A DNA stretch of 64,000 nucleotides, from contig CAVYLP010000001.1 of NCBI GenBank assembly GCA_963769425.1, positions 128,001 through 192,000 of the forward strand, given 5' to 3'. Position numbers and translations under genes: made by a program. This document shows, in pieces, positions 1 to 21,362 of the stretch (positions are counted from its first letter, which is position 1; each line of letters begins with the position of its first letter). Source of the DNA: Candidatus Bathyarchaeota archaeon (lineage in GTDB: Archaea > Thermoproteota > Bathyarchaeia > TCS64). The notes beneath the pieces are model-generated. The model had not been told where the DNA came from and did no database searches. It saw nothing but the letters and a program-made list of their open reading frames with translations.

Positions 1-254
1 ATGCAGTTATCGATGCAGAGGTAGCAGAAGAGGCACTTAAACGGCTGGTACTCCACCCTCTTCTCCTCGGGCACGACCTTAATCGCCATACTAGGGCAGA
101 CGCGCTCGCAGTCCTGACACTGGTCGCACCTATTCATGTCCCACGTCAGCGCCCCTCGTGTGCCGGGCACAGGCGTCGGCTTCTCGAACGGGTACTTAAC
201 CGTCGCTGGCTTGCTGAAGAGGTTCTTCAGTACTTCCTTTACCATTTCCGGCAT
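1..254 (-). CDS. echF: Ech hydrogenase 2x[4Fe-4S] subunit F (NuoI-like), truncated by window edge
   Basis: Manual translation MPEMVKEVLKNLFSKPATVKYPF...CDQCQDCERVCP...CLFCYLCIDNC; ATG directly follows the echE stop. Confidence 0.88.
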   Translation of the reverse strand, partial: MPEMVKEVLKNLFSKPATVKYPFEKPTPVPGTRGALTWDMNRCDQCQDCERVCPSMAIKVVPEEKRVEYQPFKCLFCYLCIDNC

Positions 255-1382
255 TTAGATGGCCTCCTTCTTCACCCGGACGAAGCGCTCCGTGCAGCTT
301 ATGCACGGGTCGATGCTGTGGACGATGGTCGGTATATCCGGGACGTCGTTCCCGATGAGCATTGAGACGAGCGGCGGAATGTTTGCGGCGGTAGGGGTCC
401 TGATCTTGCAGCGGCTCAACTTGTTCGTGCCGTTCCCCTCTACGTAGTAGAATAGCTCGCCCCGTGGCTGCTCAGTCCTCACGAGGGCCGTGCCTACGGG
501 GAACTTTTCGCTCTTGTTGAGCACCGGCCCCTCAGGCATCTCCTTAAGCGCCTTCTCGATGAGGTCTAGGCTCTGGAAGACCTCGTCGTACCTGACAAGC
601 ATCCTCGAGTAGGCATCCTCACCATCGTGGGTCACTGGCTCGAAACCGAGCGCCCCGTATGCCTCGTACCCAGTCATCCTAGCGTCGGTCTTTATACCGC
701 TTCCCCTGATCGTTGGGCCAACGGCTCCGAGGAAAGATGCCTTGCTCTTCGGCAAGATTCCCCTACCCTGCGTCTTGGCCTTAAGGGCGGAGTCCTTGTA
801 GAAGACGGGGCGAAGGTTCTCCATCTTCTGCCTTACTACGCTGAGGTCTTCGACGTATGTCTTCGCGAGGCCCTCGTCGATGTCCTTCCTGCAGCCGCCG
901 ATCACGTTGGTCTCAAGGTGGATGCGGTGGCCGTTCGTCTTCTCGTTGAGGGTAAGTATAACCTCACGGTCGCGCCAGATCTGCATGAATAAGCTCTCGA
1001 AGCCGACGGCGTCGGCAAAGAGGCCGAGCCAGAGCAGGTGGCTCTGGAGGCGCTGTAGCTCGCTCCAGGCGACGCGTATGTACTTTGCTCGTGCGGGGAC
1101 CTCCGTGTCCGTCGTTTTCTCGATCGCCTCGCAGTAAGTCATGCCGTGGATGAAGTTGCAGATGCCGCAGACGCGCTCGCAGAGGTAGATGTTCCTCTTC
1201 AGGTCGTTGATCTCGCACGCGCGCTCTATACCGCGGTGGACGTAGCCTAGGTTGGGCACGACGTCGATTATCTTATCCTCGTCGACCACGAAGCGGAGGT
1301 GTACGGGTTCGGGTAGCACGGGGTGCTGGGGTCCGAAGGGTATTACAGTGTACTTGTTCTGGGACATCTTTGCATCACTCAT
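255..1382 (-). CDS. echE: Ech-type group 4 [NiFe]-hydrogenase large subunit
   Basis: FGPQHP N-terminus, GYVHRGIE, L1 motif ERVCGIC, L2 motif DPCISCTER; start at 1382 or 1367. Confidence 0.93.
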   Translation of the reverse strand: MSDAKMSQNKYTVIPFGPQHPVLPEPVHLRFVVDEDKIIDVVPNLGYVHRGIERACEINDLKRNIYLCERVCGICNFIHGMTYCEAIEKTTDTEVPARAKYIRVAWSELQRLQSHLLWLGLFADAVGFESLFMQIWRDREVILTLNEKTNGHRIHLETNVIGGCRKDIDEGLAKTYVEDLSVVRQKMENLRPVFYKDSALKAKTQGRGILPKSKASFLGAVGPTIRGSGIKTDARMTGYEAYGALGFEPVTHDGEDAYSRMLVRYDEVFQSLDLIEKALKEMPEGPVLNKSEKFPVGTALVRTEQPRGELFYYVEGNGTNKLSRCKIRTPTAANIPPLVSMLIGNDVPDIPTIVHSIDPCISCTERFVRVKKEAI

Positions 1383-3174
1383 TCCAGTCACACTTCCAGC
1401 AGCGCTTAGCCTCGCGAAGCGCCTCGTCCTCGTTGTAGCCGAGCTCGACCTCGCCGAAGCCCTTCACGCGCTCCTCAGCGTTCAGCTCGCGGCAGGTAAC
1501 CATCTCCTGGAACCTGATCTCCTCAATGTTTGGTGGGCGGCCGACGAACTCGTCCGCCTTGAGGTCAGGCGGCGGTAGGCCCTTGCCTCCGAGGCTCATG
1601 TCTATGCTGTGGGCGGCCTTCCTGCCGTCCCTCAGGGCCTCGATTACACTGCTGGGGCCGAAGACGCCGTCGCCACCGGCGTAGACGCCGGGGAGACTCG
1701 TCTGCATAGTCTCCTCGTTGATGACTATCCTGCCCTGCCTGTTGACCTCGACACCGAAGTCGGCGGGAACAACTACTGACTGGCCGATCGCCTTCACTAT
1801 GGTATCAACCTCGATGGTGTACTCGCTCCCCTTCACCGGTACTGGCCTGCGCCTGCCCGAGTCGTCGGGTGCACCGAGCTCCATGTGTTGGAGGGTGAGC
1901 TTCAGTGGCTTACCCGGCTCGATCTTGATGGGTGCGGTTAGGTACTCGAAGCTGACGCCCTCCTGTAGGGCCCCGTGGATCTCGTGGGGCGAGGCGGGCA
2001 TCTCCTTCTCGGTGCGCCTGTAGTACATGACCACCTTGCTGGCGCCTAGGCGCTTCGCTACGCGTGCCGCGTCTATCGAGCTGTTGCCTCCGCCGATGAT
2101 GGCGACGCGGTCGCCGACGGACGGGGTCTTGTCGTGTACGTTGACCTGGTTGAGGAGCTCACGGAAGTCCATGACACCCTCGTTGTCCTCGCCGTCGACG
2201 CCCAGCTTGTAGCTGTCGACCGCCCCGATGGCTACGAAGACGGCGTCGTGTTCCTTCTTAACGATCTTGAGGTTCTTGACCTCCTTCTTCGTCTTGAGGG
2301 TGACACCCGCCTCGGCTAGACGTGCCTGTATCTCCTCCTCAAGGAGGTCCTTAGGCAGCCTGTACTTTGGTATCCCCCAGAGCATGGCCCCGCCGCAGCG
2401 GTCGCCCCTCTCGTAGAGAGTGACCTCATGGCCGAGCAGGCCGAGGAAGTAGGCGCATCCGACGCCCGCGGGTCCCCCACCGACTACAGCGACCTTCTTA
2501 CCTGTGGGCTTCTCCACCTTCATCTTCCGCCTGAGGCTCGGCATCGAGTCCGCGGTGTACCTCTTTATGAGCCTGATCTGTATGGGCTCGTCGTTGCGCT
2601 CCTGGCGGCAGCCTTCCTGACACGGGGCGAAGCAGACCCTCCCGAGTATCGCGGGAAGAGGAGCCCTCTCACAGACGGTGCTGTAACCGCCCTGTGGATC
2701 GCCCGTAGCGACCTGCCTGATGTACTTCGGAGCATTAACGGAACCGGGGCACTGCTCTCTACAGCGGCCATAGAACCTCTTAATGAAAGGCGCGGGACCG
2801 ACCGCCGGCTTTACGAGCGTGGTGTCGTCAGCGCCCTCGATGGTGAGAAGCTTTCCGCCAAAGTCTACGCTGATGTTTGAGACCTGTATCTTGAAGAGGT
2901 CCTGTAGCTCGTTCTCGAAGAGCAGCGCGGATGGGTAGACGCTCGTGATACTCGGCATCGCCTCCTTCCGGGGGATCTTCACATGGAGGTTGACTACGTC
3001 CAAGCCCTTCGCGAAGTTGTATACGTACTCCATCTCCTGGCCGTGGTCGAGGGCCGTGATGGTTATCAGGCGTGCGCCCTGAGCCTTCAGCTCGCCAAGC
3101 CTGTTGAACATCTCCGACTTATCGGCTGAAATGTCCTCTGTCTTTGATTTTAACTCGAACTGCTGTACCGTCAT
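1375..3174 (-). CDS. EchD (NuoC-like) domain fused to a GltD/NfnB-like FAD/[4Fe-4S]/NADPH oxidoreductase
   Basis: N-terminal ~125 aa with PSITSVYPSALLFENELQDLF (EchD/NuoC), then CREQCP...GRVCFAPCQEGC, VVGGGPAG, GIPKYRLP, IIGGGNSSIDAAR/YYRR and C-terminal EAKRCWKC; sits at the echD position. Confidence 0.9.
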   Translation of the reverse strand: MTVQQFELKSKTEDISADKSEMFNRLGELKAQGARLITITALDHGQEMEYVYNFAKGLDVVNLHVKIPRKEAMPSITSVYPSALLFENELQDLFKIQVSNISVDFGGKLLTIEGADDTTLVKPAVGPAPFIKRFYGRCREQCPGSVNAPKYIRQVATGDPQGGYSTVCERAPLPAILGRVCFAPCQEGCRQERNDEPIQIRLIKRYTADSMPSLRRKMKVEKPTGKKVAVVGGGPAGVGCAYFLGLLGHEVTLYERGDRCGGAMLWGIPKYRLPKDLLEEEIQARLAEAGVTLKTKKEVKNLKIVKKEHDAVFVAIGAVDSYKLGVDGEDNEGVMDFRELLNQVNVHDKTPSVGDRVAIIGGGNSSIDAARVAKRLGASKVVMYYRRTEKEMPASPHEIHGALQEGVSFEYLTAPIKIEPGKPLKLTLQHMELGAPDDSGRRRPVPVKGSEYTIEVDTIVKAIGQSVVVPADFGVEVNRQGRIVINEETMQTSLPGVYAGGDGVFGPSSVIEALRDGRKAAHSIDMSLGGKGLPPPDLKADEFVGRPPNIEEIRFQEMVTCRELNAEERVKGFGEVELGYNEDEALREAKRCWKCDWNE

Positions 3175-3175
3175 C

Positions 3176-3619
3176 TTAGTCCACCTTCTCTCCCTCACTC
3201 ACCTTCTGGAGCTTCTGTAATGCGAGCACAACCCCGTCCACGATGGACTCTGGGCGGGCCGCGCAGCCGGGGACGTAGACGTCCACGGGGATGACCTTGT
3301 CGATGCCCCCGAGGGTGTTGGGGCAGTTGTGGAATATCGCACCGCTACACGCGCACTCGCCGATGGCGATGACCGCCTTCGGCTGAGGCATCTGGTCGTA
3401 GAGGTTCTTCAGCACGTGCTGGTTGCGCTTGTTGGCGGGGCCAGTCACGACCAGGACGTCCGCCTGCTTCGGGTCGCCTATGTTGACTATGCCGAAGCGC
3501 TCCACATCGAACTTAGGCGTCAGAGCGGCTAGTATCTCGATGTCGCAGCCGTTGCAGCTGCCGCAGTCAAAGTGTATGACCCACGGCGACTTGAGCCGTG
3601 CCTTAGTCATTGTCTTCAT
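3176..3619 (-). CDS. echC: Ech hydrogenase small subunit C (NuoB-like)
   Basis: SPWVIHFDCGSCNGCDIE, IGECACSG, VYVPGCAARPE; ATGA overlap with echB. Confidence 0.93.
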   Translation of the reverse strand: MKTMTKARLKSPWVIHFDCGSCNGCDIEILAALTPKFDVERFGIVNIGDPKQADVLVVTGPANKRNQHVLKNLYDQMPQPKAVIAIGECACSGAIFHNCPNTLGGIDKVIPVDVYVPGCAARPESIVDGVVLALQKLQKVSEGEKVD

Positions 3620-4524
3620 GATAGTATCACCACACGGGCGATGAGCCCGACGATGTTCGCGATTATTAGGAGGAAACCCACGACCCACGTTGTCTTCAAC
3701 ATGGTCTTCCAGTCGAGCCTCGGGTAGCTGTTGTCGATCACGAGGACGACGAAGAAGAGTGCGAAGGCTATGATTGCCCCAAAAACTATCCACGGGACCG
3801 TGAGTGCACCGAGGACAAGGTCCTTTGCCCAGAATAGGCTCGCGAAGCCTACGAGCAGGGCGACCTTCGTCCAGTGGCCCAACTCAACCAGTGCGAGTGT
3901 GTAGCCGCTGAACTCGGTGTAGACGCCCCTGACGAGCTCCTGGTGGGCGTGGCCCGAACCGGAGACGTCGAAGGGGGACTTCTTCATGTCGATGATGAGT
4001 ACAGGGATGAGGGCGAGGAAGGTCAGTGGTAGGATGGTTAGCAGTGGCTCCTGGACGTCGAAGATCGAGCCGACCATGAAGCTTCCGGAGACGAAGAAGA
4101 TGCTTATCGCGGCGAGTAGCAGGACGGGCTCGTAGCTGAGCATGCCAAGCAGCTCGCGGCGGGCTCCTATGTTGCTGTAGGGGGACTTGGAGTTAAAGGC
4201 CGCCACAATCAGGCATAGGTCAGCTATCGCCATCGTGAAGACGAGCAACAGCATGTCCTGCCCGAAGGCCAGGAGCGCGAAGGCGGCGACGCTGAAGCCG
4301 AAGTAGCCGAAGGCTAGTATCGGCTGGAGGCTGCTCGCGATGAACGGCTCCTTGCCCCAGAGCTTTATCGCGTCGTAGAAGGGCTGCAGTATCGGCGGCC
4401 CCATGCGGCTCTGCATCCTGGCGGTTATCCTCCGGTCTATGCCCATCAGCAGGCCGCCGATTATTGGGGCAAGTATGACTAAGACCACCGGAACGTACGT
4501 GTTGAGGTTGAGGAAGTCTACCAT
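3616..4524 (-). CDS. echB: Ech membrane subunit B (NuoH-like)
   Basis: RRITARMQSRMGPPILQPFYDAIKL, KSPFD, ELVRGVYTEFSG; multiple TM helices. Confidence 0.92.
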   Translation of the reverse strand: MVDFLNLNTYVPVVLVILAPIIGGLLMGIDRRITARMQSRMGPPILQPFYDAIKLWGKEPFIASSLQPILAFGYFGFSVAAFALLAFGQDMLLLVFTMAIADLCLIVAAFNSKSPYSNIGARRELLGMLSYEPVLLLAAISIFFVSGSFMVGSIFDVQEPLLTILPLTFLALIPVLIIDMKKSPFDVSGSGHAHQELVRGVYTEFSGYTLALVELGHWTKVALLVGFASLFWAKDLVLGALTVPWIVFGAIIAFALFFVVLVIDNSYPRLDWKTMLKTTWVVGFLLIIANIVGLIARVVILS

Positions 4525-4525
4525 G

Positions 4526-6448
4526 TCAAAGCACCACCGTTATGAACATTATCATGACGAGAATCGCACCCGCCACTGCTCCGTAGGCCAGCACGTTTGA
4601 TTGGCTGAACTCATTCTCCATGAACAGGGCGGAGACCTCCATCGGGACCTGCGTGTCCGCCGTCGTCCTGAAGGCGTCCGGGTCCGCGACGTTCTCGCCG
4701 CTGACGTATGGGGGCTTCACCACGCCGCCCTTCTTCGTAGCGATCATCCATCCTATAACGAAGATGGCGATTGCACCGACCCAGAAGGGGTATGTGAGGA
4801 AAGTGCCGATGCCGGAGGAGAAACTGAGGGTCCCTGTGGTCACGAATGCGGACCACCCAGTAGGGAGCGCAGGGAGCACAACGGCGCCGATCACCATCGA
4901 TGCGCCGGCTCCCATCACTATGCCGATGGTCAGCAGGGACAGCAGGGATATCGAGTATGGCAACGGGAGCTGCTCCTCGCCGAGCTTCTTCCCGGACTGC
5001 GGGAGCACGAGCATGTGACCCAGCCACTTAGCGTAGTAGAGCGTAGTCGCTGCGCTGCCGATGAGTACGAGTGAGATTATTATGAGGAAACCCAGGGTGG
5101 AAGACGAGATTATCGCGTCTATGGCTATCCACTTACCCAGAAGCATCCCGAAGGGCGGTAGGAACATGCTCAGCATCCCGACGATCATGATGGTCGTCGT
5201 AGTCGGGAGCTTAGCGAGTAGACCCTCCCAGTCCTCGATCGCGCGCGAGTATACGCGGTTCTCGACGACACCCGCGCAGAGGAAGAGTAGACCCTTTGAA
5301 ACGGAGTGGAAGACGAGTAGCGTAAGAGCAGCGACGTAGCCCAGCGGGTTCTGGAAGGAGCTGATGCCCACACAGAGGATGATGAGTCCGAGGTTCCCAA
5401 TTGTTGAGTAGGCAAGTATTCCCTTGGATACCCTCTCATTTAGGGCGAGGACAGCCGTTATCATGAATGTGAACGCCCCGACGAGGGCGACCCCGAAGCT
5501 CAGTGCGGTACCGCTGAAGGCGGGGGCGAACCTCAGGATGAGGAAGATGCCCGCGTTAACCATCGTGCTGGAGTGCAGCAGCGCGGAGACAGGGGTCGGT
5601 GCGACCATAGCGCCTTGCAACCACTTGTTGAACGGAAACTGCGCCGACTTCGTGAAAGCTGCGAAGACGAGCGCAGAGAAGAGGAGTAACAGTGGGCGGC
5701 TAAGGTTCGAGGTTACAAGCGTCTCGATTGAGAGTGTACCAACGAAGGTGAAAGCCAAGTAGATTGCGGCGACGAACCCGACGCCGCCGAGGAGGTTCAT
5801 CCAGAGGGCTGTAAGCGCGTTCTTCACAGCGATATCCGTGCCGTCGTGCCTGATCAGCTCGTAGCTGCACAGGGTCGTGACCTCCCAGAAGAAGTAGACC
5901 CAGTAGAGGCTGTTGCTGAAGACTAGGCCAGCCATGGCGCCGAGGAGGACGAGCATGAAGAAGAAGAAGCGTGGCTGTTTGCTCTTCTCAATGTGCAGGT
6001 GGTGCTCGTGCTCATCCATGTAGCTAAGCGCGTAGACGACGATGAGGGAGCCCACGATGCTGATGATGAGGCTCATAATAAGGGAAAGCTGGTTGACAAC
6101 TATCATAGGCTCAACGGCCATTCCGCCGAGGCCGAACTCAAAATAGGCCACTGGGACGAGTTGCAGAGCAGCGAGCCCGATGACCAGCCAATTATTGTTC
6201 TTCAGTCCAGCGTACAGGAAGTAGACGAGGAGAGCTAGGTCAAGCACGAGTACGATGCTCTCGAATATGGGCGCCGGCTCGTACGTGAAGCCACCCCCCT
6301 GGAATAGCAGCAGGGATGAGCCAATTAGGATAACGGCGGTCAACCCGACGAGGATTCGTCTGGCCGCCTTATTGTTTAGGGCATAACATAGGAGACCCGC
6401 CAATGGTGGGAAACCAACCGTCAGGGCTATGAGAGCATCTCCATTCAT
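4526..6448 (-). CDS. echA: Ech antiporter-like membrane subunit A (NuoL/MrpA-like)
   Basis: FFWEVTT, TKSAQFPF..WL..AMVAPTPVSALLHSSTMV, LAYST, HSVSKGLLFL. Confidence 0.92.
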   Translation of the reverse strand: MNGDALIALTVGFPPLAGLLCYALNNKAARRILVGLTAVILIGSSLLLFQGGGFTYEPAPIFESIVLVLDLALLVYFLYAGLKNNNWLVIGLAALQLVPVAYFEFGLGGMAVEPMIVVNQLSLIMSLIISIVGSLIVVYALSYMDEHEHHLHIEKSKQPRFFFFMLVLLGAMAGLVFSNSLYWVYFFWEVTTLCSYELIRHDGTDIAVKNALTALWMNLLGGVGFVAAIYLAFTFVGTLSIETLVTSNLSRPLLLLFSALVFAAFTKSAQFPFNKWLQGAMVAPTPVSALLHSSTMVNAGIFLILRFAPAFSGTALSFGVALVGAFTFMITAVLALNERVSKGILAYSTIGNLGLIILCVGISSFQNPLGYVAALTLLVFHSVSKGLLFLCAGVVENRVYSRAIEDWEGLLAKLPTTTTIMIVGMLSMFLPPFGMLLGKWIAIDAIISSSTLGFLIIISLVLIGSAATTLYYAKWLGHMLVLPQSGKKLGEEQLPLPYSISLLSLLTIGIVMGAGASMVIGAVVLPALPTGWSAFVTTGTLSFSSGIGTFLTYPFWVGAIAIFVIGWMIATKKGGVVKPPYVSGENVADPDAFRTTADTQVPMEVSALFMENEFSQSNVLAYGAVAGAILVMIMFITVVL

Positions 6449-6837: not shown

Positions 6838-8187
6838 TTGGATAAGTACATTGAGAGTATCTACAAAGGCCTCGTTGAGAAGGATCCCCTACAGAAGGAG
6901 TTCCATCAGGCAGCTTACGAGGTTCTATCGACCATCGAGCCGGCGATCAAGAAGTTCCCTAAGTACCAGGAGAACGCCATCCTTGAGCGCTTGGTTGAGC
7001 CCGAAAGGATCATTCAGTTCCGTGTTCCTTGGAAGGACAAGGACGGCAAGATCCAAGTCAACCGCGGCTACCGTGTACAGTACAACTCAGCCATCGGCCC
7101 ATACAAGGGCGGATTCAGACTCCATCCCACCGTCAACCTCGGCGTCATGAAGTTCCTCGGGTTCGAGCAGACCTTCAAGAACAGCCTCACAACGCTCCCA
7201 ATGGGAGGCGCAAAGGGCGGCTCCGACTTCGACCCCAAGGGCAAAACGGATGCTGAGGTAGAGACCTTCTGCGAGAGCTTCATGTTCGAGATCTACAGGC
7301 ACATCGGTCAGTTCATCGACGTCCCCGCAGGCGACATCGGTGTCGGCGGGCGAGAGATCGGCTACCTGTACGGTGCCTACCGCAAGATCACCAACAACCA
7401 CGGCACAGGTGTACTCACGGGTAAGGGCCTTACCTTCGGCGGCAGCCTCGCGAGGACCGAGGCGACCGGCTATGGTGCAGTCTACTTCAGTGAGGAGATG
7501 ATGAAGACGAAGAAGGAGTCCCTAAAGGGCAAGGTCGCCGTCGTCTCCGGCTCCGGAAACGTCGCACAGTACGCGGTCCAGAAGCTCATCCAGCTCGGCG
7601 CTAAGCCAGTCACTCTTAGTGACTCCGACGGCTACATCTACGACCCTGCAGGCATCGACGCGAAGAAGCTTGACTACGTGCTCGAGCTCAAGAACGTCAA
7701 GAGGGGCCGCATCAGCGAGTACGCTGAGAAGTTCAAGGGCGTCACCTACGAGGCGAAGAAGACCCCGTGGGCCGTAAAGTGCGACCTAGCATACCCCTGC
7801 GCGACTCAGAACGAGCTAAACGACAAGGACGCTAAGAAGCTCATCGACAACGGAGTCAAGGCGGTCACCGAGGGCGCAAACATGCCGTGCACCCTAGAGG
7901 CCATCAAGGTCCTCATGGACGGGGGCGTGCTATACGCACCAGGCAAGGCCAGCAACGCAGGCGGCGTAGCCACGAGTGGCCTCGAAATGAGCCAGAACAG
8001 CCAGCGCTACTTCTGGAGCTTCGAGGAGGTTGACCAGAAGCTACACGGCATCATGGTCAGCATCCACAAGAACGCGTACGACACGGCGAAGCTCTTCGGT
8101 CAGCCCGGTAACTATGTCATGGGCGCCAACATCGCAGGCTTCCTCAAGGTAGCCGACGCGATGATCGCTCAGGGCATATACGCCTAA
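6838..8187 (+). CDS. gdhA: NADP-type glutamate dehydrogenase
   Basis: EFHQA, GPYKGGFRLHP, PMGGAKGGSDFDPKG, DVPAGDIGVG, SGSGNVA, PCATQNE, PGKASNAGGV. Confidence 0.95.
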   Translation: MDKYIESIYKGLVEKDPLQKEFHQAAYEVLSTIEPAIKKFPKYQENAILERLVEPERIIQFRVPWKDKDGKIQVNRGYRVQYNSAIGPYKGGFRLHPTVNLGVMKFLGFEQTFKNSLTTLPMGGAKGGSDFDPKGKTDAEVETFCESFMFEIYRHIGQFIDVPAGDIGVGGREIGYLYGAYRKITNNHGTGVLTGKGLTFGGSLARTEATGYGAVYFSEEMMKTKKESLKGKVAVVSGSGNVAQYAVQKLIQLGAKPVTLSDSDGYIYDPAGIDAKKLDYVLELKNVKRGRISEYAEKFKGVTYEAKKTPWAVKCDLAYPCATQNELNDKDAKKLIDNGVKAVTEGANMPCTLEAIKVLMDGGVLYAPGKASNAGGVATSGLEMSQNSQRYFWSFEEVDQKLHGIMVSIHKNAYDTAKLFGQPGNYVMGANIAGFLKVADAMIAQGIYA

Positions 8188-8340: not shown

Positions 8341-9159
8341 ATGTACGATATAGTGCGGAAGGAGCAGCTTGCACCGAACATCAAGCTCTTTGAGGTCAAC
8401 GCGCCCGCGGTTGCCGCTAAATCGAGGCCTGGGCAGTTTGTAATTCTGCGTGTCCACGAACGGGGTGAGAGATTTCCGATAACGATAGCCGACGCCAGCC
8501 CCAGGAAGGGCACGGTTAACATCATCTTTGCAGAGGTGGGCAAGTCATCGACCCAACTCGGGAAGCTAGAGGTCGGGGAGGGCATACTGAACTTCTCCGG
8601 CCCCCTCGGGAACGCGACTAAGATTCAGAAATACGGCGACGTCCTCTGCGTCGGTGGGGGGGTTATGGCCGGTGCACTGCTATACCAGGTGAAGGCGTTG
8701 AAGAATGCGGGGAACCACATAACAACGATCCTCGGGGCGAGGAGCAAGGAGCACCTGATCCTCGTAGATGAACTAAGGAAGGCCAGCGACGAGTTCCACG
8801 TCGCCACGGACGACGGCTCGGAGGGCCACGAGGGCATAGCCTTCCTCGCGGAGATGCTTAAGGAGAAGAAGTTCGCCCAGGCAATCACCATCGGGCCGAC
8901 GAGCATGCAGATGGTCGTCTCCGAGATGACGAGGCCCTACAGTATACCCACAACGGTGAACCTGTTCCCTATAATGGTGGATGGGACGGGTATGTGCGGG
9001 GCCTGCCGTGTAACTGTCGGCGGGGAGACGAAGTTCGCATGCGTAAACGGCCCAGATTTCGATGGCCACAAGGTAAACTACGACGAGCTGATTAGTCGCA
9101 TGAGGTTCTACAACCCAAACGAGAAGATTGCCATGGTAGTTTTCGACGGAGGCGACTGA
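8341..9159 (+). CDS. nfnA: NfnA/SudB small subunit (FAD, [2Fe-2S])
   Basis: PGQFVILR..ERGERFP, GPLG, MVDGTGMCGACR...CVNGP (Asp+3Cys [2Fe-2S] motif). Confidence 0.92.
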   Translation: MYDIVRKEQLAPNIKLFEVNAPAVAAKSRPGQFVILRVHERGERFPITIADASPRKGTVNIIFAEVGKSSTQLGKLEVGEGILNFSGPLGNATKIQKYGDVLCVGGGVMAGALLYQVKALKNAGNHITTILGARSKEHLILVDELRKASDEFHVATDDGSEGHEGIAFLAEMLKEKKFAQAITIGPTSMQMVVSEMTRPYSIPTTVNLFPIMVDGTGMCGACRVTVGGETKFACVNGPDFDGHKVNYDELISRMRFYNPNEKIAMVVFDGGD

Positions 9160-9160
9160 C

Positions 9161-10564
9161 ATGGCGCAAAAGAACCCCCAGATGGAGATGCCTAAGCAGG
9201 CGGTCGAACAAAGGGTACACAACTTTGATGAGGTCGCGCTAGGTTACATTGAGGAACTCGCTCTGATGGAGGCGGGGAGGTGCCTAAACTGCCCCAAGCC
9301 ACAGTGCAAGAAGGGGTGCCCGGTAGAGGTTCCCATCCCCGAGTTTATACAGCTCATAAAAGAGCACAAGTTCGCGGAGGCGGCTAAAAAACTCAAGGAG
9401 AAGAACGCGCTTCCCGCCGTTTGCGGTAGGGTATGCCCACAGGAGGAGCAGTGCCAGAAGTTCTGCGTCCTCGGCGTCAGGGGCGACCCCGTCGGAATCG
9501 GGCGCCTCGAGAGGTACGCCTCAGACTGGGAGAGGCTTAACACGAAGCTCGAGCCCCAGGCAATAACACAGACGGGGGGCAAGGTCGCGGTCGTGGGCTC
9601 CGGCCCAGCCGGGTTAACCGTAGCCGCTGACCTCGCCAAGATGGGGCACAAGGTCACGATCTTCGAGTCCCTACACACGGCTGGAGGCGTGCTCATGTAT
9701 GGCATCCCCCAGTTCAGGCTCCCGAAGGAGATAGTCCAGACCGAGGTCGAGTACGTGAAGAGCCTCGGCGTCGAGCTACGCCTAGACTCCACCATCGGGC
9801 TACTATCCACCATACAGGAGCTGATGACCGGCGGCTACGATGCGGTTTTCATAGGCTCTGGCGCCGGACTCCCCAACTTCCTCCATGTTCCCGGCGAGAA
9901 CCTAAAGGGCATCTACTCCGCGAACGAATTTCTCATCCGCACGAACCTGATGAAGGCGTACAAGTTCCCAGAGTACGATACGCCGATAAGAGTGGGAAAG
10001 AAAGTCGGGGTCGTCGGGGCCGGCAATGTCGCCATGGACTCCGCCCGCTGCTCCTTGCGACTGGGGGCCGAGCGTGTCTACATCATCTACCGACGGAGCA
10101 GAGATGAGATGCCTGCGAGAGCAGAGGAGGCCGAGAACGCCGAGGAGGAGGGCATAGAGTTCAACCTCCTCACCAACCCAATCCGCTTCATCGGGAACGA
10201 CCGCGGCTTCCTGGAGAAGGTCGAGTGCGTGAAGCAGCGACTCAGCGAGCCGGACCAGTCGGGCAGGCGCAGGCCTGAGCCCATCGAAGGCAGCAACTTC
10301 ACAATCGACATCGACACGGCCGTGATCGCCATCGGGCAGTCACCAAACCCCATCATCCAGCAGACGACAGAGGGGCTACAGACTACCCGCCACGGGACTA
10401 TAGTGGTTAATGAAGAAACCATGCAGACTGCCCTCCCTGGCGTCTATGCCGGAGGCGACGTGGTCAGCGGGGCGGCTACGGTCATCAGCGCTATGGGGGC
10501 TGGCAAGAAGGCCGCGAAGGCGATAAACGCATATATAATCGCTAAGGCCGCTAAAACAGTCTAA
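9161..10564 (+). CDS. nfnB: NfnB/SudA large subunit (bifurcating FAD, 2x[4Fe-4S])
   Basis: EAGRCLNC...CPV, GRVCPQEEQC, GSGPAG, YGIPQFRLP, GAGNVAMD, YRR; paired with nfnA. Confidence 0.92.
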   Translation: MAQKNPQMEMPKQAVEQRVHNFDEVALGYIEELALMEAGRCLNCPKPQCKKGCPVEVPIPEFIQLIKEHKFAEAAKKLKEKNALPAVCGRVCPQEEQCQKFCVLGVRGDPVGIGRLERYASDWERLNTKLEPQAITQTGGKVAVVGSGPAGLTVAADLAKMGHKVTIFESLHTAGGVLMYGIPQFRLPKEIVQTEVEYVKSLGVELRLDSTIGLLSTIQELMTGGYDAVFIGSGAGLPNFLHVPGENLKGIYSANEFLIRTNLMKAYKFPEYDTPIRVGKKVGVVGAGNVAMDSARCSLRLGAERVYIIYRRSRDEMPARAEEAENAEEEGIEFNLLTNPIRFIGNDRGFLEKVECVKQRLSEPDQSGRRRPEPIEGSNFTIDIDTAVIAIGQSPNPIIQQTTEGLQTTRHGTIVVNEETMQTALPGVYAGGDVVSGAATVISAMGAGKKAAKAINAYIIAKAAKTV

Positions 10565-12035: not shown

Positions 12036-14447
12036 TTAGTCGTGGGTCAGCGTCTCGACTCTCTTGTTAGCATCGTTCATCTTCTTGATACGTTCTGTGA
12101 AGTCGTTGAACATGGTGATGAGCCACGTCGGCATGCAGGCGCTCGTGAAGATAGTCTCAAGCCGCTCCCCTCCGACGCCGAGGACGTCGAGCGTCTTCTT
12201 CATCACGTCGACGCGGTCGATTGCCTCGAGGTTGCCCGTTAGATAGTTGCACTGGGTGGGGAGGCAGCCGCTGATGATCACGCCGTCTGCACCGCTCCTG
12301 AAGGCAGTGAGGACGTGCAGGGCATCTATCCTGCCCGTGCACGGGACCCTGATTATCCTGATGTTGTCCGGGTACTCCATCCCCATGTTGCCCGCGGCGT
12401 CCGCGGCGGCGTAGCTACACCACTGGCAGGCGAATGCGACGATTACAGGCTCGTCCTTCTTCTCCTCGCTCAGCCACTTCGGTGTGAGTATCGCCTTGAT
12501 CTTAGGGATGAGCTGGTCGTCCTTGTAGTGGCGCAGCTGCATGGCGGAGACTGGGCAGACGGCGCTGCATATCCCGCAGCCCTCGCACGCCACCTCGATC
12601 ACCTTCGGCTCACCGAAGGCGCTCCACTCGATGGCGCTGAAGGGGCAGATGCTCGCGCAGGCGCCGCATCCGACGCACTTCTCCTTGTCCACCCAGGCCT
12701 TCGCGAGGTCGATCTCCATCTCACCGCGCATCAGCATCGAGGCGACACGCCCAGTGGCGCCAAGCGCCTGTGTCACGCTCTCCTGAATGTCCTTGGGCCC
12801 ATGTGCTGTACCAGCTATGAATATGCCTTCGACTGCTGTATCTAGAGGCTCCAGCTTCGGGCCGCGCTCCGCGAAGAAGCCGTCAGCCGAGACAGCGACG
12901 CCAAGCTTCTGGGCCAGTTCTAGCGCTCCCTTGGAGGGCTCAAGGCCAGTGGACAGTACGAGCAGGTCCACGTAGAGTGGGACCATTTCACCATACTCGT
13001 CCTTGACGTCGACGTGTATTGAGCCATCTGGCATCGTGGTGACGCCCTCTATCTCCCCCCTGAGGAGGCGGACGCCCTGGTTCTGCGCTTTGTAGTAGTA
13101 GTCCTCGTAGTGCTTCCCTGTGAGGCGGATGTCCTTGTGAATTATCGCAAGACCCGCCTCGGGGTTCCTCTCCATGATCTCTGTGGCGTGCTTGACGGCG
13201 ATGCCGCAGCATATCTTACTGCAGTATTCGTGGGTCTTCGTGTCGCGTGAGCCGACACACTGGATCATTGCTATGCGTTTGGGCTCCTGCCCGTCGCCGG
13301 GGCGTATCACCCGCCCCTTCGTCGGCCCCGACTGGTCGAGCATCCTCGCCAGTTGTAGCTGAGTTATGACGTTCGGGTTTTCACCGTAGCCGTGCATCCC
13401 CTTGGGGTCGAAGGTCTCGAAGCCAGAGGCCACGACGACTGCGCCGATGTCCACCATCATCTCCCTCGGTTGCTCACCAAGATCGATCGCCTTCACCGGG
13501 CAGGCATCGACGCACTTCCCGCACCTCGTGCAGGTGCCGGGGTCGATCGCGTAGACCCTCGGCAGGGCCTGGTCACTGAGGATGTAGATGGCTTTCCGCT
13601 TGTCGAGACCGAAGTTGAACTCGTTCGGAACCTCGACGGGGCACACATCCGCGCACCTGTCGCATCCCATGCATAGTTCGGGGTTGACGAAGCGGGGGTT
13701 GACCCCAATCTTCGCCTTATAGTTGCCGATGTGGCCTGTGAGCGTCTTCAGCTCGGCCGATGTGAGGATGTTGACGTGCTCGTGGTTGGCCACTGTGTTT
13801 CGATAGAAGCAGCGCCGGTGGAGGTCGTTTCCGCATGGGGAGACGCAAGTTCCACAGTCGTCACTCGGGAATACCGAGCCAAGCTGCAGCACCTTGCCCC
13901 CTAGGAAGGGGGTCCTTTCTATGAGGAACACCTCCATGCCTAGGTCGCCGAGCCTCTTCGAGGCCTCGACGCCTGCGACTCCCCCGCCTATGACTAGCAC
14001 AGACTTCTGTACGGGGAAGCTCTTTTTCTCGATGGGCTCTAGTGTCTTCGCCCTCTCCACGGCTGCCTTGACTAGAAATTTGGCCTTCTCTGTCGCTTTT
14101 AGTATCTGCCCCGGGTAGAGGAGGGCACAGTGTTCGCGTATGTTCGCCATCTCGAGCAGGTACTTGTTGAGCCGTACCCTCTCCATCATCCTCTGGAAGG
14201 TGGGCTCGTGGAGCCACGGGGAGCATCCGGCGACGACGACTCTGTTGATCCCGTTTGCCTTGATCGCCTCGCTTATCGTCTTCACGCCAGCGTCGCTGCA
14301 GGCGAAGTCGCTCTCCTCGGCGTAGACTACGCCGGGGAGCTTCGAGGCGTACTCCTTGAGGCTGGTGGTGTCGACGGATTTGGCTACGTTGAGCCCGCAT
14401 CGGCAGACGAAGACGCCGACCCTCGGCTCCTCCTTGTTGTTGCTCAT
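12036..14447 (-). CDS. hdrA: HdrA-like flavoprotein fused to C-terminal MvhD [2Fe-2S] domain
   Basis: GVFVCRCG, GCSP, NIREHC, GGGVAG, QCVGSRD..YCSKICC, two ferredoxin domains, then FACQWCSY..VPCTGR..SGC..QC (MvhD). Confidence 0.92.
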   Translation of the reverse strand: MSNNKEEPRVGVFVCRCGLNVAKSVDTTSLKEYASKLPGVVYAEESDFACSDAGVKTISEAIKANGINRVVVAGCSPWLHEPTFQRMMERVRLNKYLLEMANIREHCALLYPGQILKATEKAKFLVKAAVERAKTLEPIEKKSFPVQKSVLVIGGGVAGVEASKRLGDLGMEVFLIERTPFLGGKVLQLGSVFPSDDCGTCVSPCGNDLHRRCFYRNTVANHEHVNILTSAELKTLTGHIGNYKAKIGVNPRFVNPELCMGCDRCADVCPVEVPNEFNFGLDKRKAIYILSDQALPRVYAIDPGTCTRCGKCVDACPVKAIDLGEQPREMMVDIGAVVVASGFETFDPKGMHGYGENPNVITQLQLARMLDQSGPTKGRVIRPGDGQEPKRIAMIQCVGSRDTKTHEYCSKICCGIAVKHATEIMERNPEAGLAIIHKDIRLTGKHYEDYYYKAQNQGVRLLRGEIEGVTTMPDGSIHVDVKDEYGEMVPLYVDLLVLSTGLEPSKGALELAQKLGVAVSADGFFAERGPKLEPLDTAVEGIFIAGTAHGPKDIQESVTQALGATGRVASMLMRGEMEIDLAKAWVDKEKCVGCGACASICPFSAIEWSAFGEPKVIEVACEGCGICSAVCPVSAMQLRHYKDDQLIPKIKAILTPKWLSEEKKDEPVIVAFACQWCSYAAADAAGNMGMEYPDNIRIIRVPCTGRIDALHVLTAFRSGADGVIISGCLPTQCNYLTGNLEAIDRVDVMKKTLDVLGVGGERLETIFTSACMPTWLITMFNDFTERIKKMNDANKRVETLTHD

Positions 14448-16775
14448 TTCTTAGCCTCCTCGATCTGCTTCACTAGCCCATCCAGCTCCGTGAGGAACTG
14501 TTCGAGCATCGAACCGCAGCTCTTCAAAACCCTTATCGGGGCATTTCCCTCGCCGTAGAGGCGATCCATGAATCTTAGCTGCCCCTCAGCGTGGTCGACG
14601 CCCTTCTCGAAGTGGCAGCGGTCCTTGACGCAGCCTATGAGCATGACGCCGTCCGCACCGTGGTCTAGGGCGCCGACTATGTGGCGGAGGCTGATGGTGC
14701 TCATGCAGGGGACATATACAGGGTATGAAGGAGGGACTGTAGCTCGCTCCCTTCACTCCCGCGATGTCGAGCAGCCTGTACCCGCAGTCGTTGCAAGCAA
14801 AGCCTATGATCTTGGTGGCACCATTTCCACCCTCAAGGCTGCTTTCACCTGAGCATCCACAAGATCAAATCCGAAGTTCGGATTATCGAGTGCCCTCGTT
14901 GGGCAGCTTGTGATGCATAGACCGCAGCTCTGGCAGAGTGTCTCGTCGATACGGACAGGGCCCTCGACGGGCATCGTAATGGCCTGATATGGGCAGACCG
15001 TCGGGCAGACGCCACAGCGTCCGCACCTCGCCGAGTCGACCCTCGGCGTCAGGATAGGCTTCATAGCGTCCACCTCCTTCATCAGGTGAAGGCCCGCCAT
15101 CGCTGCAGCTGCGCTCGCTTGGGATACGGACTCTGGGATGTCCTTGGGTGAGTGGCAAGCGCCCGCGAGATAGACACCGGGGCGTTTCGTTATTGTGCTG
15201 GCAACCTTCGTATCCACCTCCTTAAAGAACCCGTCATTGTCGAGTTCGAGGCCGAGCCTCTCGGCGAGGTCGCGGGTGCCCTTGCTAGGCACCATGCCCG
15301 TACTGAGGACCACCAGGTCACTTGGTGTAGATGTTCTCTGTCCCTTCCCGTCCGTGTACTCGACGATCAGGCCACCGCCCTCGGCCTGCCTGACGGCGTC
15401 GAGGTTCCCGTGGACGAAGTTGATGCCAATCGTCTTTACGCGGTTGTAGAACTCCTCGTAGTACTTCCCGCCGGCGCGTATGTCCTTGAAGAGGATGGTG
15501 ATGTCGATGTCCGCGCCCTGGTGGAGTTTTATCTCCTCGGCGTGTTTCATCGCCGCCATGCAGCAGTATCGGCTGCACCACGGGTTGATCTCCGGGTCCC
15601 TGCTCCCCGCGCACTGGATCATGACTATCTTCTTCGGCTTCTGCCCGTCGCTGGGCTTGGTGAGGATTCCCGCGGTTGGGCCCTCGCCGTCGAGGTAGCG
15701 GGCGAGCTGGAACTGGTCGATGACATCCGCGTTCTCTGCGCCGTACTTGGGGTGCTTCCGGGCGTCCCAGTTGTCGACCCCAGTGGCGACGATTATCGAG
15801 CCGACGTAGAGGTCCTTGAACTTCTCCTCGTCCTTGAAGTTAATTGCCTGATTGGGGCAGACGCGCTCGCAGAGGCGGCAACTTCCCTTTGTGAGGTAGA
15901 GGCACGCCTCCGGGTCGATTACGTGTTTCCTCGGGATCGCGTTCGAGTGTGGGAGGTATATTGCCTTCCGCTTGCTTATCCCCCGGTTTATCTGGTCGGG
16001 GACGCTGACGGGGCACCTCTCCGTGCACTGCCCGCATGCGACGCACTTCTCCTCGTCGACGTATCGGGGCTTCCGCCTCACGTGGACGCGGTATCCGACG
16101 GGCATCCTGATGACGGCCTCGACCTCGCTGTTGTCGAGGACCTCGATGCCCTGTTCGTTTCCGACGTCCATCATCTTGGGGCCGCCGATGCAGATTGCGC
16201 AGCTGTCCTCGGGGAACGTCTTGCCCAGCAGACGGCATCAGGCCACCGATCGTCGGCTCACGCTCAACTAGGTGAACCATCATGCCGAGCTTCGCCAGGT
16301 CAAGGGAGGCCTGGATGCCTGAGACGCCGCCGCCAATCACGAGCACGTCGTTGAATCGCTGCACCACCTTCCTGTCGAGGGGGGTGCTCATCTTCGCCTT
16401 CTCGACGGCGACGCTTATGAGGCTCTTCGCCTTCTCGGTCGCTTCCACCCGGTCGTTGTGCACCAGAGCGCACTGCTCCCGGACGTTCGTTATTATGAGC
16501 TGGTTGGGGTCGAGCCCAGCCCCCTCCATGGCCTTCTGTAGGGGTTTCTCAAGTCTGACGCGGGAGCCTGTGACGGCGACAACGCTCGTGACGTCCTTGC
16601 CACCGTTCTTCTTCACGTCAGTTAGCCGGTCGAGCATGACCTTCTGGTTGAGGATCGGGGTCTGGTAGGCCGCGTAGACGCCGTTCATCCCCCTAGCGTA
16701 CTTCTCTAGGGCGTCGACGTCGAGCCTCTCCTTCAGGGTCTCCCCGAAGGTGTCGAAGATCACAATCGCGCTCAC
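14444..16775 (-). CDS. hdrA: Second HdrA-MvhD fusion, split by three apparent frameshifts (~16232, ~14835, ~14722)
   Basis: Joined frames read GGGVSG...GKTFPEDSCAIC...QCAGSRD..WCSRYCC...GFACNDCGY..VPCMS..IGC..RCHF; 4-bp overlaps with both neighbours. Confidence 0.85.
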
Positions 16776-19042: not shown

Positions 19043-19258
19043 GCTATCACCGACCCGGCATCCCACCGGAACCCAAAGTACGGCAAAGGGAATCAGTAAT
19101 TATTCTAATGACTACATATATTGTTTATGTTGGTATAGAGAATAATATCTGTAGGTAAAAATTCCCCATCGAAAAGGGAGGGGCGAATATGGAGATTATT
19201 CCTGAATATTGTAAATAGATGCTGAAAGATGTAAAAATATGTGGAGGCTAAGGGGTTC

Positions 19259-20155: not shown

Positions 20156-20168
20156 TTCATTATCCTCC

Positions 20169-21347: not shown

Positions 21348-21362
21348 ACTTCATTCTCCTCC

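What the first reader, a model, noticed from the sequence alone, without database searches (positions are those of the whole stretch)
1375..3174. Ech hydrogenase whose EchD subunit is fused to an NfnB/GltD-like NADPH flavo-Fe-S module
Seen: the operon order is canonical echA-B-C-D-E-F and echE keeps both Ni-binding CxxC motifs. The gene at the echD position is ~600 aa instead of ~120. After the EchD domain it continues, with no stop or frameshift, into a full GltD/NfnB-type domain: Fe-S motifs with the CxxC supplied by the C-terminal RCWKC, an FAD Rossmann fold (GGGPAG), GIPKYRLP, and an NADPH-type second fold (GGGNSSIDAAR, YYRR). Established: Ech normally exchanges electrons only with ferredoxin. 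NfnB carries the bifurcating FAD, and the Arg of the GIPxxRLP motif is, as I recall, its flavin-N5 partner. GltD-like genes have been noted beside some group 4 hydrogenase clusters, but I do not recognise an EchD fusion. Inference: this complex may link NADPH directly to H+/H2 and an ion gradient, either as a simple NADPH input or output module or as a membrane-bound bifurcating/confurcating hydrogenase. The divergent NADP-type GDH is a plausible NADPH source.
Basis: partly seen in the sequence, partly recalled or inferred. Interest (0 to 1): 0.88.

Follow-up and report, generated by a model that had tools for sequence, protein, structure and literature searches.

The report
Ech hydrogenase with fused NADPH module
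A membrane-bound, ion-pumping nickel-iron hydrogenase of an uncultured Bathyarchaeia archaeon has an NADPH-binding iron-sulfur flavoprotein fused to one of its small core subunits, which suggests that it trades electrons with NADPH and not only with ferredoxin.

Summary
On the minus strand lie echA-B-C-(D-fusion)-E-F. The echD-position gene (1375-3174) is one 599-aa frame: a NuoC/EchD fold, a conserved linker, then a complete GltD/NfnB-type module with 7 Cys for two [4Fe-4S] clusters, an FAD fold and an NADPH-type fold.

The fusion is not an assembly error. Contigs from 4 other metagenome runs cross the junction without indels, and 59 public loci carry the same fused gene between echC and echE. 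Most are Bathyarchaeia; a deep Dehalococcoidia branch has it too.

The flavin module is closest to the NADPH-input domain of StnC and Bfu-type NfnA. It shares their C-terminally permuted CxxC and their Lys ligand, where NfnB has Glu. In those enzymes the FAD does not bifurcate.

Best reading (about 0.6): a non-bifurcating NADP(H) port wired into the Ech Fe-S chain, giving an ion-coupled NADP(H):H+/H2 oxidoreductase. A bifurcating version is disfavoured, not excluded.

New context: hdrCBA-mvhD directly follows echF, but only in close relatives. NADP-GDH, NfnAB, Mvh/Hdr and a 2-oxoacid:ferredoxin oxidoreductase lie nearby.

Nine full-text searches found no description. One paper notes an unexplained flavin site in a Dehalococcoides Mbh-Bfu subunit, which I could not check. 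This scan noted the same fusion twice before, on other genomes.

The parts
4526..6448 (-). echA: NuoL/Mrp-antiporter-like membrane subunit, 640 aa
   Evidence: Pfam Proton_antipo_M 167 bits and Proton_antipo_N. An EchA homolog lies upstream in most related loci.
3616..4524 (-). echB: NuoH-like membrane subunit, 302 aa
   Evidence: Pfam NADHdh 159 bits.
3176..3619 (-). echC: NuoB-like small subunit with one [4Fe-4S] site, 147 aa from the ATG that overlaps the echB stop
   Evidence: Pfam Oxidored_q6 108 bits; translation. Found directly upstream of the fused gene in 53 of 59 loci. In the other 6 the contig starts inside or at the fused gene.
2845..3174 (-). EchD (NuoC-like) domain of the fused gene, residues 1 to about 110
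   Evidence: Pfam Complex1_30kDa 39.1 bits, cut-off 22.5. 573 relatives at E<=1e-3; of the best 150, nearly all are stand-alone proteins of 100-190 aa. The AF2 model of residues 1-137 matches NuoC/Nqo5, MbhK and MbsK.
2770..2844 (-). Linker, residues about 111-135: conserved in sequence, low-confidence in the model
   Evidence: K122, G126, P129 and R133 are invariant in 28 homologs. pLDDT is below 50 for residues 110-132. Contigs of 4 runs cross it without gaps.
2509..2769 (-). Fe-S domain (Fer4_20 type), residues 136-222: C138, C142, C181, C185, C189 and K204
   Evidence: Pfam Fer4_20 75 bits from profile position 31. The Cys and K204 are invariant. K204 aligns with StnC K170 and with the Glu of NfnB.
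1570..2508 (-). FAD and NADPH Rossmann domains, residues 223-535: GGGPAG, GIPKYRLP, GGGN, YYRR
   Evidence: Pfam Pyr_redox_2 109 bits. Colinear alignments to NADPH-using StnC, NfnA, NfnB and NfnL. Fold matches.
1375..1569 (-). C-terminal segment, residues 536-599 plus the stop: carries the permuted helix and RCWKC (C592, C595)
   Evidence: Aligns to the N-terminal residues 8-46 of NfnB/NfnL and colinearly to StnC and C. saccharolyticus NfnA. RCxxC is within the last 15 residues in 53 of 53 full-length homologs.
255..1391 (-). echE: [NiFe] large subunit, 378 aa; its start overlaps the end of the fused gene
   Evidence: Pfam Complex1_49kDa + NiFeSe_Hases. Motifs L1 and L2 in the translation. L1 in 57 of 57 and L2 in 56 of 57 neighbours of fused genes.
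1..254 (-). echF: 2x[4Fe-4S] subunit, cut by the window start; the full gene is 112 aa in the genome
   Evidence: Two CxxCxxCxxxC motifs are conserved in 23 sequences.
6838..8187 (+). Divergently transcribed NADP-type glutamate dehydrogenase (context)
   Evidence: NCBIfam NF006929, 738 bits, cut-off 536. Same position in 11 of 59 loci.
8341..10564 (+). NfnA-like (8341-9159) and NfnB-like (9161-10564) pair (context)
   Evidence: Pfam DHODB_Fe-S_bind / FAD_binding_6, and a full-length Fer4_20 + Pyr_redox_2. An NfnA homolog is syntenic in 10 of 59 loci.

Best explanation
The operon encodes a six-subunit, membrane-bound, ion-translocating group 4 [NiFe] hydrogenase. Its NuoC-like subunit (EchD) carries a permanently attached NADP(H) port.

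Proposed path (inferred): NADPH gives a hydride to the FAD of the fused module. Electrons then pass one at a time through its Lys-ligated proximal [4Fe-4S] and its distal [4Fe-4S], into the two clusters of EchF, on to the EchC cluster and to the [NiFe] site of EchE. There protons are reduced to H2, or the whole path runs in reverse. EchA and EchB couple this to ion movement.

The FAD acts as an ordinary two-electron to one-electron converter, as in StnC, Bfu-type NfnA and glutamate synthase beta. It is not a bifurcating flavin.

Direction would follow the H2 pressure. By my own estimate, not computed here, NADPH to H2 is slightly exergonic at the low H2 of peat or sediment, and H2 to NADP+ is exergonic at high H2. 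With an NADP-GDH next door in a likely peptide fermenter, NADPH disposal as H2 is my preferred direction.

Shown: the anatomy, conservation, subtype and synteny. Inferred: the wiring to EchF, NADPH as the real substrate, the direction and the ion coupling.
For: 1. One intact frame holds all domains.

2. The junction is crossed without indels by contigs of 4 of 4 runs.

3. Of the 120 best database relatives (51-97% identity), 109 by my count carry PF00329 + PF14691 + PF07992 at about 600 aa.

4. 59 public loci hold the fused gene. echE lies directly downstream in 57 and echC directly upstream in 53; the remainder are cut by contig ends. After clustering all neighbours, only Ech subunits are conserved everywhere.

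5. All cofactor residues are invariant: 7 Cys, K204, R272, GGGPxG, GGGN and YRR. The Cys, Lys and C-terminal CxxC pattern is present in 53 of 53 full-length homologs.

6. The best solved relatives by sequence and by fold are C. saccharolyticus Nfn-ABC NfnA (9bov_A, 360 bits), T. sibiricus NfnA and S. ovata StnC. They are colinear through the C-terminal CxxC and have Lys at the ligand position. In those enzymes this domain is the NADPH input and its FAD does not bifurcate.

7. The linker is conserved but unstructured in the monomer model, as expected if it packs on partner subunits.

8. The stop/start overlaps echB-echC and fusion-echE fit co-translation.

9. NiFe ligands are kept in the large subunits beside fused genes: L1 in 57 of 57, L2 in 56 of 57.
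Against: There is no biochemical or expression evidence; no RNA run holding the locus was listed.

No model of the complex could be made, so contact between the module's distal cluster and EchF is untested.

NADPH rather than NADH specificity rests only on motif likeness to NADPH enzymes.

A GltD-type module can also serve other acceptors. In the monomer model the two halves have no confident mutual orientation (linker pLDDT below 50).

In 4 loci (L032, L034, L035, L039) the fused cluster has no echA or echB hits upstream. Ion coupling may therefore not be universal.
Confidence: 0.6

Rival explanations
1. Bifurcating or confurcating membrane hydrogenase. The fused FAD splits or merges electron pairs as in NfnB. 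NADPH and reduced ferredoxin would together drive H2 formation, or H2 would reduce NADP+ and ferredoxin together, on an ion-pumping scaffold.
For: The module is homologous to NfnB/NfnL, whose FAD bifurcates. R272 equals NfnB R201. Both an NADPH source (GDH) and a ferredoxin source (2-oxoacid:ferredoxin oxidoreductase) lie within 22 kb. EchF could act as a ferredoxin site.
Against: The module has the StnC / Bfu-NfnA signature: Lys, not Glu, at the proximal cluster and a C-terminal permuted CxxC. In that subtype the FAD was shown not to bifurcate. The Arg is also present in non-bifurcating StnC. There is no NfnA-like second exit subunit in the operon; the NfnA-like gene nearby is paired with its own NfnB.
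Confidence: 0.1
2. Ech-Hdr supercomplex. The fused Ech works together with the HdrC, HdrB and HdrA-MvhD proteins encoded directly downstream. This would link H2 or NADPH to a heterodisulfide-type acceptor and ferredoxin.
For: hdrC starts 47 nt after echF on the same strand, and hdrC, hdrB and hdrA-mvhD overlap each other. The same order occurs in 6 related loci: L009, L010, L011, L013, L014 and L016. HdrB-linked group 4 hydrogenases have been proposed in other archaea (PMC9723716 passages).
Against: The hdr genes are absent downstream in L015 (85% identity) and in all more distant loci with enough flank. The spacer holds a T5 run and a TATA-like TTTTTAAT about 25-30 nt before the hdrC ATG, so hdrC may have its own promoter (my reading). 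A separate mvhAG and a second hdrA-mvhD lie 10 kb away and could be the real Hdr partners.
Confidence: 0.07
3. The module serves something other than NADP(H):H2 exchange. It could use NADH, reduce a different acceptor as some GltD-type proteins do, or pass ferredoxin-derived electrons to NADP+ with the hydrogenase site as a bystander.
For: GltD-like modules occur in many unrelated enzymes (PMC12018979 passages). Dehalococcoidia genomes hold many such modules in proteins of 500-1500 aa. Specificity was not tested.
Against: YRR follows the second Rossmann strand, as in the NADPH enzymes it aligns with. The module is found only between echC and echE, with intact NiFe ligands beside it. That argues for coupling to the hydrogenase itself.
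Confidence: 0.15
4. Assembly or annotation artefact: two genes joined by a sequencing error.
For: None found.
Against: The same single frame occurs in 59 loci from independent assemblies and in 44 of 401 sampled genomes of the class. Contigs of 4 runs cross the junction with 0 gaps.
Confidence: 0.01

Closest known systems
Ech, the six-subunit energy-converting [NiFe] hydrogenase (echABCDEF of Methanosarcina barkeri and Thermoanaerobacter kivui; names recalled, not fetched)
   Same: Same six gene types in the same order: two membrane subunits, a NuoB-like, a NuoC-like, a NiFe large subunit with both CxxC motifs and a 2x[4Fe-4S] subunit.
   Different: EchD is 599 aa, not about 120, and carries FAD, an NADPH site and two more [4Fe-4S] clusters. 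Canonical Ech is described as ferredoxin-linked only (recalled). HydDB class was not determined.
Mbh of Pyrococcus furiosus (PDB 6CFW)
   Same: MbhL is the closest solved relative of the large subunit (253 bits). MbhK matches the EchD-domain model.
   Different: Mbh has 14 subunits with an Mrp module and no flavoprotein (recalled). Here there are six genes and a fused flavin module.
NfnL-like / GltD-like NADPH domain of StnC (S. ovata, 8OH5) and of Bfu-type NfnA (T. sibiricus 9N5U; C. saccharolyticus 9BOV)
   Same: Best sequence and fold matches. Colinear including the C-terminal CxxC. Lys at the proximal-cluster ligand position, the conserved Arg and YRR.
   Different: There the domain is inserted in a NuoG-like subunit and feeds a BfuBC (HydBC-like) bifurcating core. 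Here it follows a NuoC-like domain in a hydrogenase, and no BfuBC genes are in the operon.
NfnAB / NfnSL transhydrogenase (4YLF, 5JCA)
   Same: Same fold and cofactor set in the large subunit, 37% identity in the fold alignment. A true NfnAB-like pair lies 5 kb away in the window.
   Different: NfnB has the CxxC at its N-terminus and a Glu ligand, and needs NfnA as the second exit for bifurcation. The fused module has none of the three.
Mbh-Bfu proposed for Dehalococcoides (Schut et al. 2022, PMC9304861; passages read)
   Same: A group 4 hydrogenase proposed to be linked to pyridine nucleotides. [quoted passage not shown]
   Different: That cluster has BfuABC genes in its middle; this one has none.
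GltD-linked [FeFe] hydrogenases, group A2 (HydDB paper PMC5037454; passages read)
   Same: A hydrogenase paired with a GltD-type protein, with the role undetermined.
   Different: A different hydrogenase class, soluble, with GltD as a separate downstream gene rather than a fusion to a complex-I-like subunit.

Membership tests
Group 4 membrane-bound [NiFe] hydrogenase, Ech-type subunit set | Large subunit with L1 (CxxC..H) and L2 (DPCxxCxxR) nickel-iron ligand motifs | tested here: met
   RVCGICNFIH and DPCISCTER are in the translation. L1 in 57 of 57 and L2 in 56 of 57 large subunits next to fused genes; the one miss is cut by a contig end.
Group 4 membrane-bound [NiFe] hydrogenase, Ech-type subunit set | NuoB-like small subunit, 2x[4Fe-4S] subunit, NuoH-like and NuoL-like membrane subunits in one operon | tested here: met
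   Pfam hits for each. Order A-B-C-D-E-F.
Group 4 membrane-bound [NiFe] hydrogenase, Ech-type subunit set | NuoC-like subunit (EchD) | tested here: met
   Complex1_30kDa above cut-off. Relatives are mostly stand-alone proteins of 100-190 aa. Fold matches NuoC, MbhK and MbsK.
Group 4 membrane-bound [NiFe] hydrogenase, Ech-type subunit set | Placement of the large subunit in HydDB subgroup 4e (Ech) rather than 4d or 4g | not testable with these tools
   No HydDB classifier or reference set was available. The closest solved chain is MbhL. A Bathyarchaeota group 4 enzyme is listed as 4g in PMC5037454, but identity with this cluster is unknown.
Group 4 membrane-bound [NiFe] hydrogenase, Ech-type subunit set | Ferredoxin as electron partner; ion translocation | not testable with these tools
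   Needs biochemistry.
NfnB/NfnL (bifurcating large subunit of NfnAB) | Two [4Fe-4S] sites, an FAD fold and an NADPH fold | tested here: met
NfnB/NfnL (bifurcating large subunit of NfnAB) | Glu as fourth ligand of the cluster next to the FAD | tested here: not met
   The position holds Lys204, invariant in 28 of 28 and 53 of 53 homologs. NfnB has Glu in the alignment.
NfnB/NfnL (bifurcating large subunit of NfnAB) | N-terminal CxxC, and an NfnA/NfnS partner giving a second electron exit | tested here: not met
   The CxxC is at the C-terminus. There is no NfnA-like gene in the ech operon.
StnC / Bfu-type NfnA NADPH-input (NfnL-like) domain | Lys ligand at the proximal cluster, and the CxxC after the flavin domains (colinear) | tested here: met
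   K204 equals StnC K170. The alignment is colinear to chain residues 566-567. Significance from PMC10482914 section 9.
StnC / Bfu-type NfnA NADPH-input (NfnL-like) domain | Embedded in a NuoG-like subunit that docks on a BfuBC core | tested here: not met
   No NuoG-like domain in the protein. No NuoE- or NuoF-like genes in the operon.
StnC / Bfu-type NfnA NADPH-input (NfnL-like) domain | Non-bifurcating FAD (Arg too far from N5) | not testable with these tools

The most novel reading that the evidence does not exclude
This is the first membrane-bound, ion-translocating hydrogenase with two electron ports, ferredoxin at EchF and NADPH at the fused flavoprotein. It energetically couples them, giving confurcation of NADPH and reduced ferredoxin to H2 or the reverse. 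In this lineage it may also dock HdrABC-MvhD. That would be a complex-I-like machine combining ion pumping with flavin-based or Hdr-based bifurcation.
Probability: 0.1. Interest if true: 0.92.

Novelty: new variant of a known kind. Interest (0 to 1): 0.72.

Why it matters
Energy-converting group 4 hydrogenases are treated as ferredoxin, formate or CO enzymes. NADP(H)-linked hydrogenases known so far are soluble (recalled). An ion-coupled NADP(H):H2 enzyme would add a coupling site to the energy budgets drawn for Bathyarchaeia, among the most abundant archaea in anoxic sediments and peat. It would also change how their H2 production or uptake is modelled.

It is a natural example of input-module exchange on the complex I scaffold. 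Here an NADPH module hangs on the NuoC-like subunit, where complex I carries NuoEFG and Fpo carries FpoF (recalled).

The family is large enough to choose a tractable member for expression: more than 100 sequence clusters in each of two branches.

Tried and rejected
The wiring to EchF is therefore untested.

2. RNA evidence: no RNA holder was listed. All 12 listed runs are DNA metagenomes with small shares of the words.

3. Literature. Nine full-text searches found no paper describing an EchD/NuoC-GltD fusion or an NADPH-linked group 4 hydrogenase (a tenth attempt failed on a term format).
   - Passages of PMC7886697, PMC11697101, PMC9723716, PMC5037454 and PMC4478896 do not mention it.
   - PMC11697101 lists 'ECH: 551-559', nine genes, in a Bathy-6 genome. 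That could be ech plus hdr, but the one supplement file held had none of my terms.

4. Neighbour mining for a second conserved partner found none beyond the Ech subunits.

5. The idea that hdr linkage is a general feature was rejected. It occurs only in 6 close loci.

6. Monophyly of large subunits next to fused genes: the tree has only two outgroups, so it shows the Dehalococcoidia/archaea split but is not a real test of a single origin.

7. The monomer model gives no usable orientation between the two halves.
Full report
**The locus**

The window is G000:C1:128001-192000 of a 2.55-Mb, 6-contig genome, 91% complete. Closest relatives carry Bathyarchaeota/Bathyarchaeia titles.

On the minus strand, ORF listing and Pfam give:
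- echA, 4526-6448, Proton_antipo_M
- echB, 3616-4524, NADHdh
- echC, 3176-3619, Oxidored_q6
- a 599-aa gene, 1375-3174
- echE, 255-1391, Complex1_49kDa + NiFeSe_Hases
- echF, cut by the window start

I read the missing end from the genome. echF is 112 aa with two CxxCxxCxxxC motifs. The echC ATG overlaps the echB stop, and echE starts inside the last codons of the 599-aa gene.

**The fused gene**

Pfam finds Complex1_30kDa (residues 37-108, 39.1 bits, cut-off 22.5), Fer4_20 (145-219, starting only at profile position 31 of 113) and Pyr_redox_2 (234-525). NCBIfam's best models are GltD-like proteins that extend to the C-terminus: PRK12814 at 426 bits and PRK12771 at 419 bits, both below their cut-offs.

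In an alignment of 28 homologs (51-97% identity), the following are invariant:
- seven Cys: 138, 142, 181, 185, 189, 592, 595
- K204 and R272 (the latter in GIPKYRLP)
- both glycine-rich folds and YRR
- four linker residues: K122, G126, P129, R133

The N-terminal 137 residues on their own find 573 proteins at E<=1e-3 among 1.84 billion representatives. Of the best 150, nearly all are stand-alone proteins of 100-190 aa, and four are 460-604 aa. An AF2 model of this part (pLDDT 75) matches NuoC/Nqo5/30-kDa subunits, MbhK and MbsK. It is therefore a real EchD, and the fusion is the derived state.

**The fusion is not an artefact**

Contigs of four public metagenome runs, 90-99% alike and so from relatives, cross the junction region. 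These are X1 2265-3219, X2 2265-2909, X4 2164-2841 and 2812-3120, and X7 2555-2965. All have 0 gaps, and the table of inserted or deleted letters is empty.

A scan of one genome per species returned 59 loci with the same single frame. In a sample of 401 genomes of the class, 44 have a match that includes the EchD part, and three of them have two copies. Four more are cut at contig ends. They concentrate in the window's own family and one other.

**Context in relatives**

tblastn of the window's proteins on the 59 loci shows echE directly downstream in 57 and echC directly upstream in 53. The remainder are contig ends. echA and echB lie upstream except in L032, L034, L035 and L039.

After clustering all neighbouring ORFs, only Ech subunits are shared by most loci.

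Titles are mostly Bathyarchaeia (including two Hecatellales), plus one Methanomethylicota, one Korarchaeum and 10 Dehalococcoidia/Dehalococcoidales. Single 'Patescibacteria', 'Desulfaltia', 'Nitrososphaerales' and 'Bacteroidales' contigs also appear.

In a quick tree of 57 large subunits, the Dehalococcoidia form one clade (SH-aLRT 91) and the archaea another (86). Three of the odd labels nest inside Bathyarchaeia clades on short branches, which points to binning errors or recent transfer.

The bacterial branch is itself large. The 120 best-scoring relatives listed are mostly fused proteins of about 592 aa, and some are 723 aa with an added receiver domain. It is nevertheless rare per genome: four full-length cases among the listed matches of 301 sampled genomes (the tally there includes one genome flagged unpublished, on which nothing rests).

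**Which kind of flavin module**

By sequence, the best solved relatives are:
- 9bov_A, 360 bits; fold search names it C. saccharolyticus Nfn-ABC
- 9n5u_A, T. sibiricus NfnA
- 8oh5_C, S. ovata StnC
- then T. maritima NfnB and P. furiosus NfnL

The printed alignments show three things:
1. The match to NfnA (9bov_A) and StnC is colinear right through the C-terminal RCxxC. Against NfnB/NfnL, my residues 558-596 instead align to their residues 8-46.
2. K204 aligns with StnC K170 and with the Lys of the T. sibiricus NfnA, whereas NfnB has Glu there.
3. R272 aligns with StnC R239, which the Stn paper equates with NfnB R201.

The Stn paper (section 9 read) reports that K170 is a ligand of the cluster next to the FAD and is strictly conserved in StnC. 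It also reports that R239 lies about 6 A from N5 and that this FAD does not bifurcate; it simply passes NADPH electrons down a [4Fe-4S] chain. The T. sibiricus paper (passages) says the same of NfnA.

The Lys, the 7-Cys pattern and the C-terminal CxxC are present in 53 of 53 full-length fused homologs.

**Mechanism**

I therefore read the module as a non-bifurcating NADP(H) port.

The whole-protein AF2 model is confident in both halves (mean pLDDT 82.8) but not in the conserved linker (below 50 for 110-132). This fits a linker that becomes ordered only on the assembled peripheral arm.

In complex I the NuoC homolog lies beside NuoD and NuoI (recalled). A module hung on its C-terminus could then reach EchF, much as NuoG reaches NuoI. 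This step is inferred. The tool that could have tested it was unavailable.

Energetics, by my own estimate: E0' of NADP+/NADPH is -320 mV against -414 mV for H+/H2, so H2 to NADP+ could drive about one ion. At 1-10 Pa H2 the H+/H2 couple rises to about -270 to -300 mV, so NADPH to H2 becomes the downhill direction.

**Wider neighbourhood**

Directly after echF, on the same strand, come hdrC, hdrB (two CCG domains) and a 776-aa hdrA-mvhD fusion. This order recurs in 6 close loci only. The 47-nt spacer has a T5 run and a TATA-like box.

Upstream and divergent are an NADP-type GDH and an NfnAB-like pair.

Further on lie a second hdrA-mvhD, an hdrA-like gene in two overlapping frames, mvhA- and mvhG-like genes, and a three-gene 2-oxoacid:ferredoxin oxidoreductase. 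The region reads as a redox island suited to glutamate or amino-acid fermentation, which yields both NADPH and reduced ferredoxin.

The genome has at least two more group-4-like clusters. One of them begins with a separate Pyr_redox_2 flavoprotein and a HycB-like protein.

**Novelty**

Nine full-text searches and passages of the most relevant Bathyarchaeia, HydDB and Bfu papers gave no description of this fusion.

This scan's own notes record the same fusion on two other genomes with the same reading. I re-derived the observation independently. I add the StnC-type assignment, which argues against bifurcation, and the hdr context.

Noticed in passing
L008:6191-9868 (= G000:C1:124191-127868, just before the window start), minus strand: hdrC (161 aa), hdrB (290 aa, two CCG domains) and a 776-aa hdrA-mvhD fusion follow echF after a 47-nt spacer. 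The same order occurs in 6 close loci only.
   Followed up: partly
window 12036-19066, minus strand: A second hdrA-mvhD fusion (803 aa, 12036-14447), an mvhA-like NiFe large subunit (16772-18172) and an mvhG-like small subunit (18209-19066).
   Followed up: partly
window 14804-16775, minus strand: An HdrA-like protein appears as two overlapping ORFs: 15840-16775 holds the FAD fold and 14804-16174 the Fer4 part. This could be a frameshift, a sequencing error or two genes.
   Followed up: no
window 19259-22211, minus strand: A three-gene 2-oxoacid:ferredoxin oxidoreductase (TPP_enzyme_C; POR_N + PFOR_II; POR + Fer4). Together with the NADP-GDH it suggests glutamate or 2-oxoglutarate oxidation.
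   Followed up: no
L075:5960-12556 (G000:C3:132960-139556), minus strand: A second group 4 hydrogenase cluster in the same genome. In order: Pyr_redox_2 flavoprotein (353 aa), HycB-like Fer4_11, an unannotated 477-aa ORF, NuoH-like, a NuoC-NuoD-fused NiFe large subunit (555 aa), HycF-like and HycG-like. This may be another pyridine-nucleotide-linked group 4 enzyme, with the flavoprotein as a separate gene.
   Followed up: partly
L032:7192-7924, L043:5960-6684 and 10-12 further loci: Two small soluble proteins (about 125 and 107-127 aa, no Pfam hit, no predicted membrane helix) sit directly upstream of the fused ech cluster in 12-14 distant Bathyarchaeia loci. They are absent from the window.
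   Followed up: partly
L032, L034, L035, L039: A paralogous fused cluster with no echA or echB hits upstream. L032 and L035 come from assemblies that also hold a complete cluster (L045, L041). It may be a non-pumping or shared-membrane-arm variant.
   Followed up: no
P0361-P0385: Dehalococcoidia forms of about 723 aa carry a response-regulator receiver domain (PF00072) in addition to EchD + GltD.
   Followed up: no
L060:80-6469: A Dehalococcoidales contig has a second, very divergent Ech-like cluster followed by a separate GltD-like gene, directly upstream of its fused ech cluster.
   Followed up: no
L016:528-2321: One homolog has Lys instead of the conserved Arg in GIPKY(R/K)LP.
   Followed up: no
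L022, L052, L055: Contigs titled Patescibacteria, Nitrososphaerales and Desulfaltia nest within Bathyarchaeia clades in the large-subunit tree on short branches. These are probably mis-binned contigs.
   Followed up: partly
L053:17914-21115: About 4.7 kb downstream of the fused ech cluster in one Dehalococcoidia locus lie a 150-aa ORF (not annotated here) and a 643-aa ORF with a Complex1_51K (NuoF-like) match. These might relate to the Mbh-Bfu idea in the literature.
   Followed up: no
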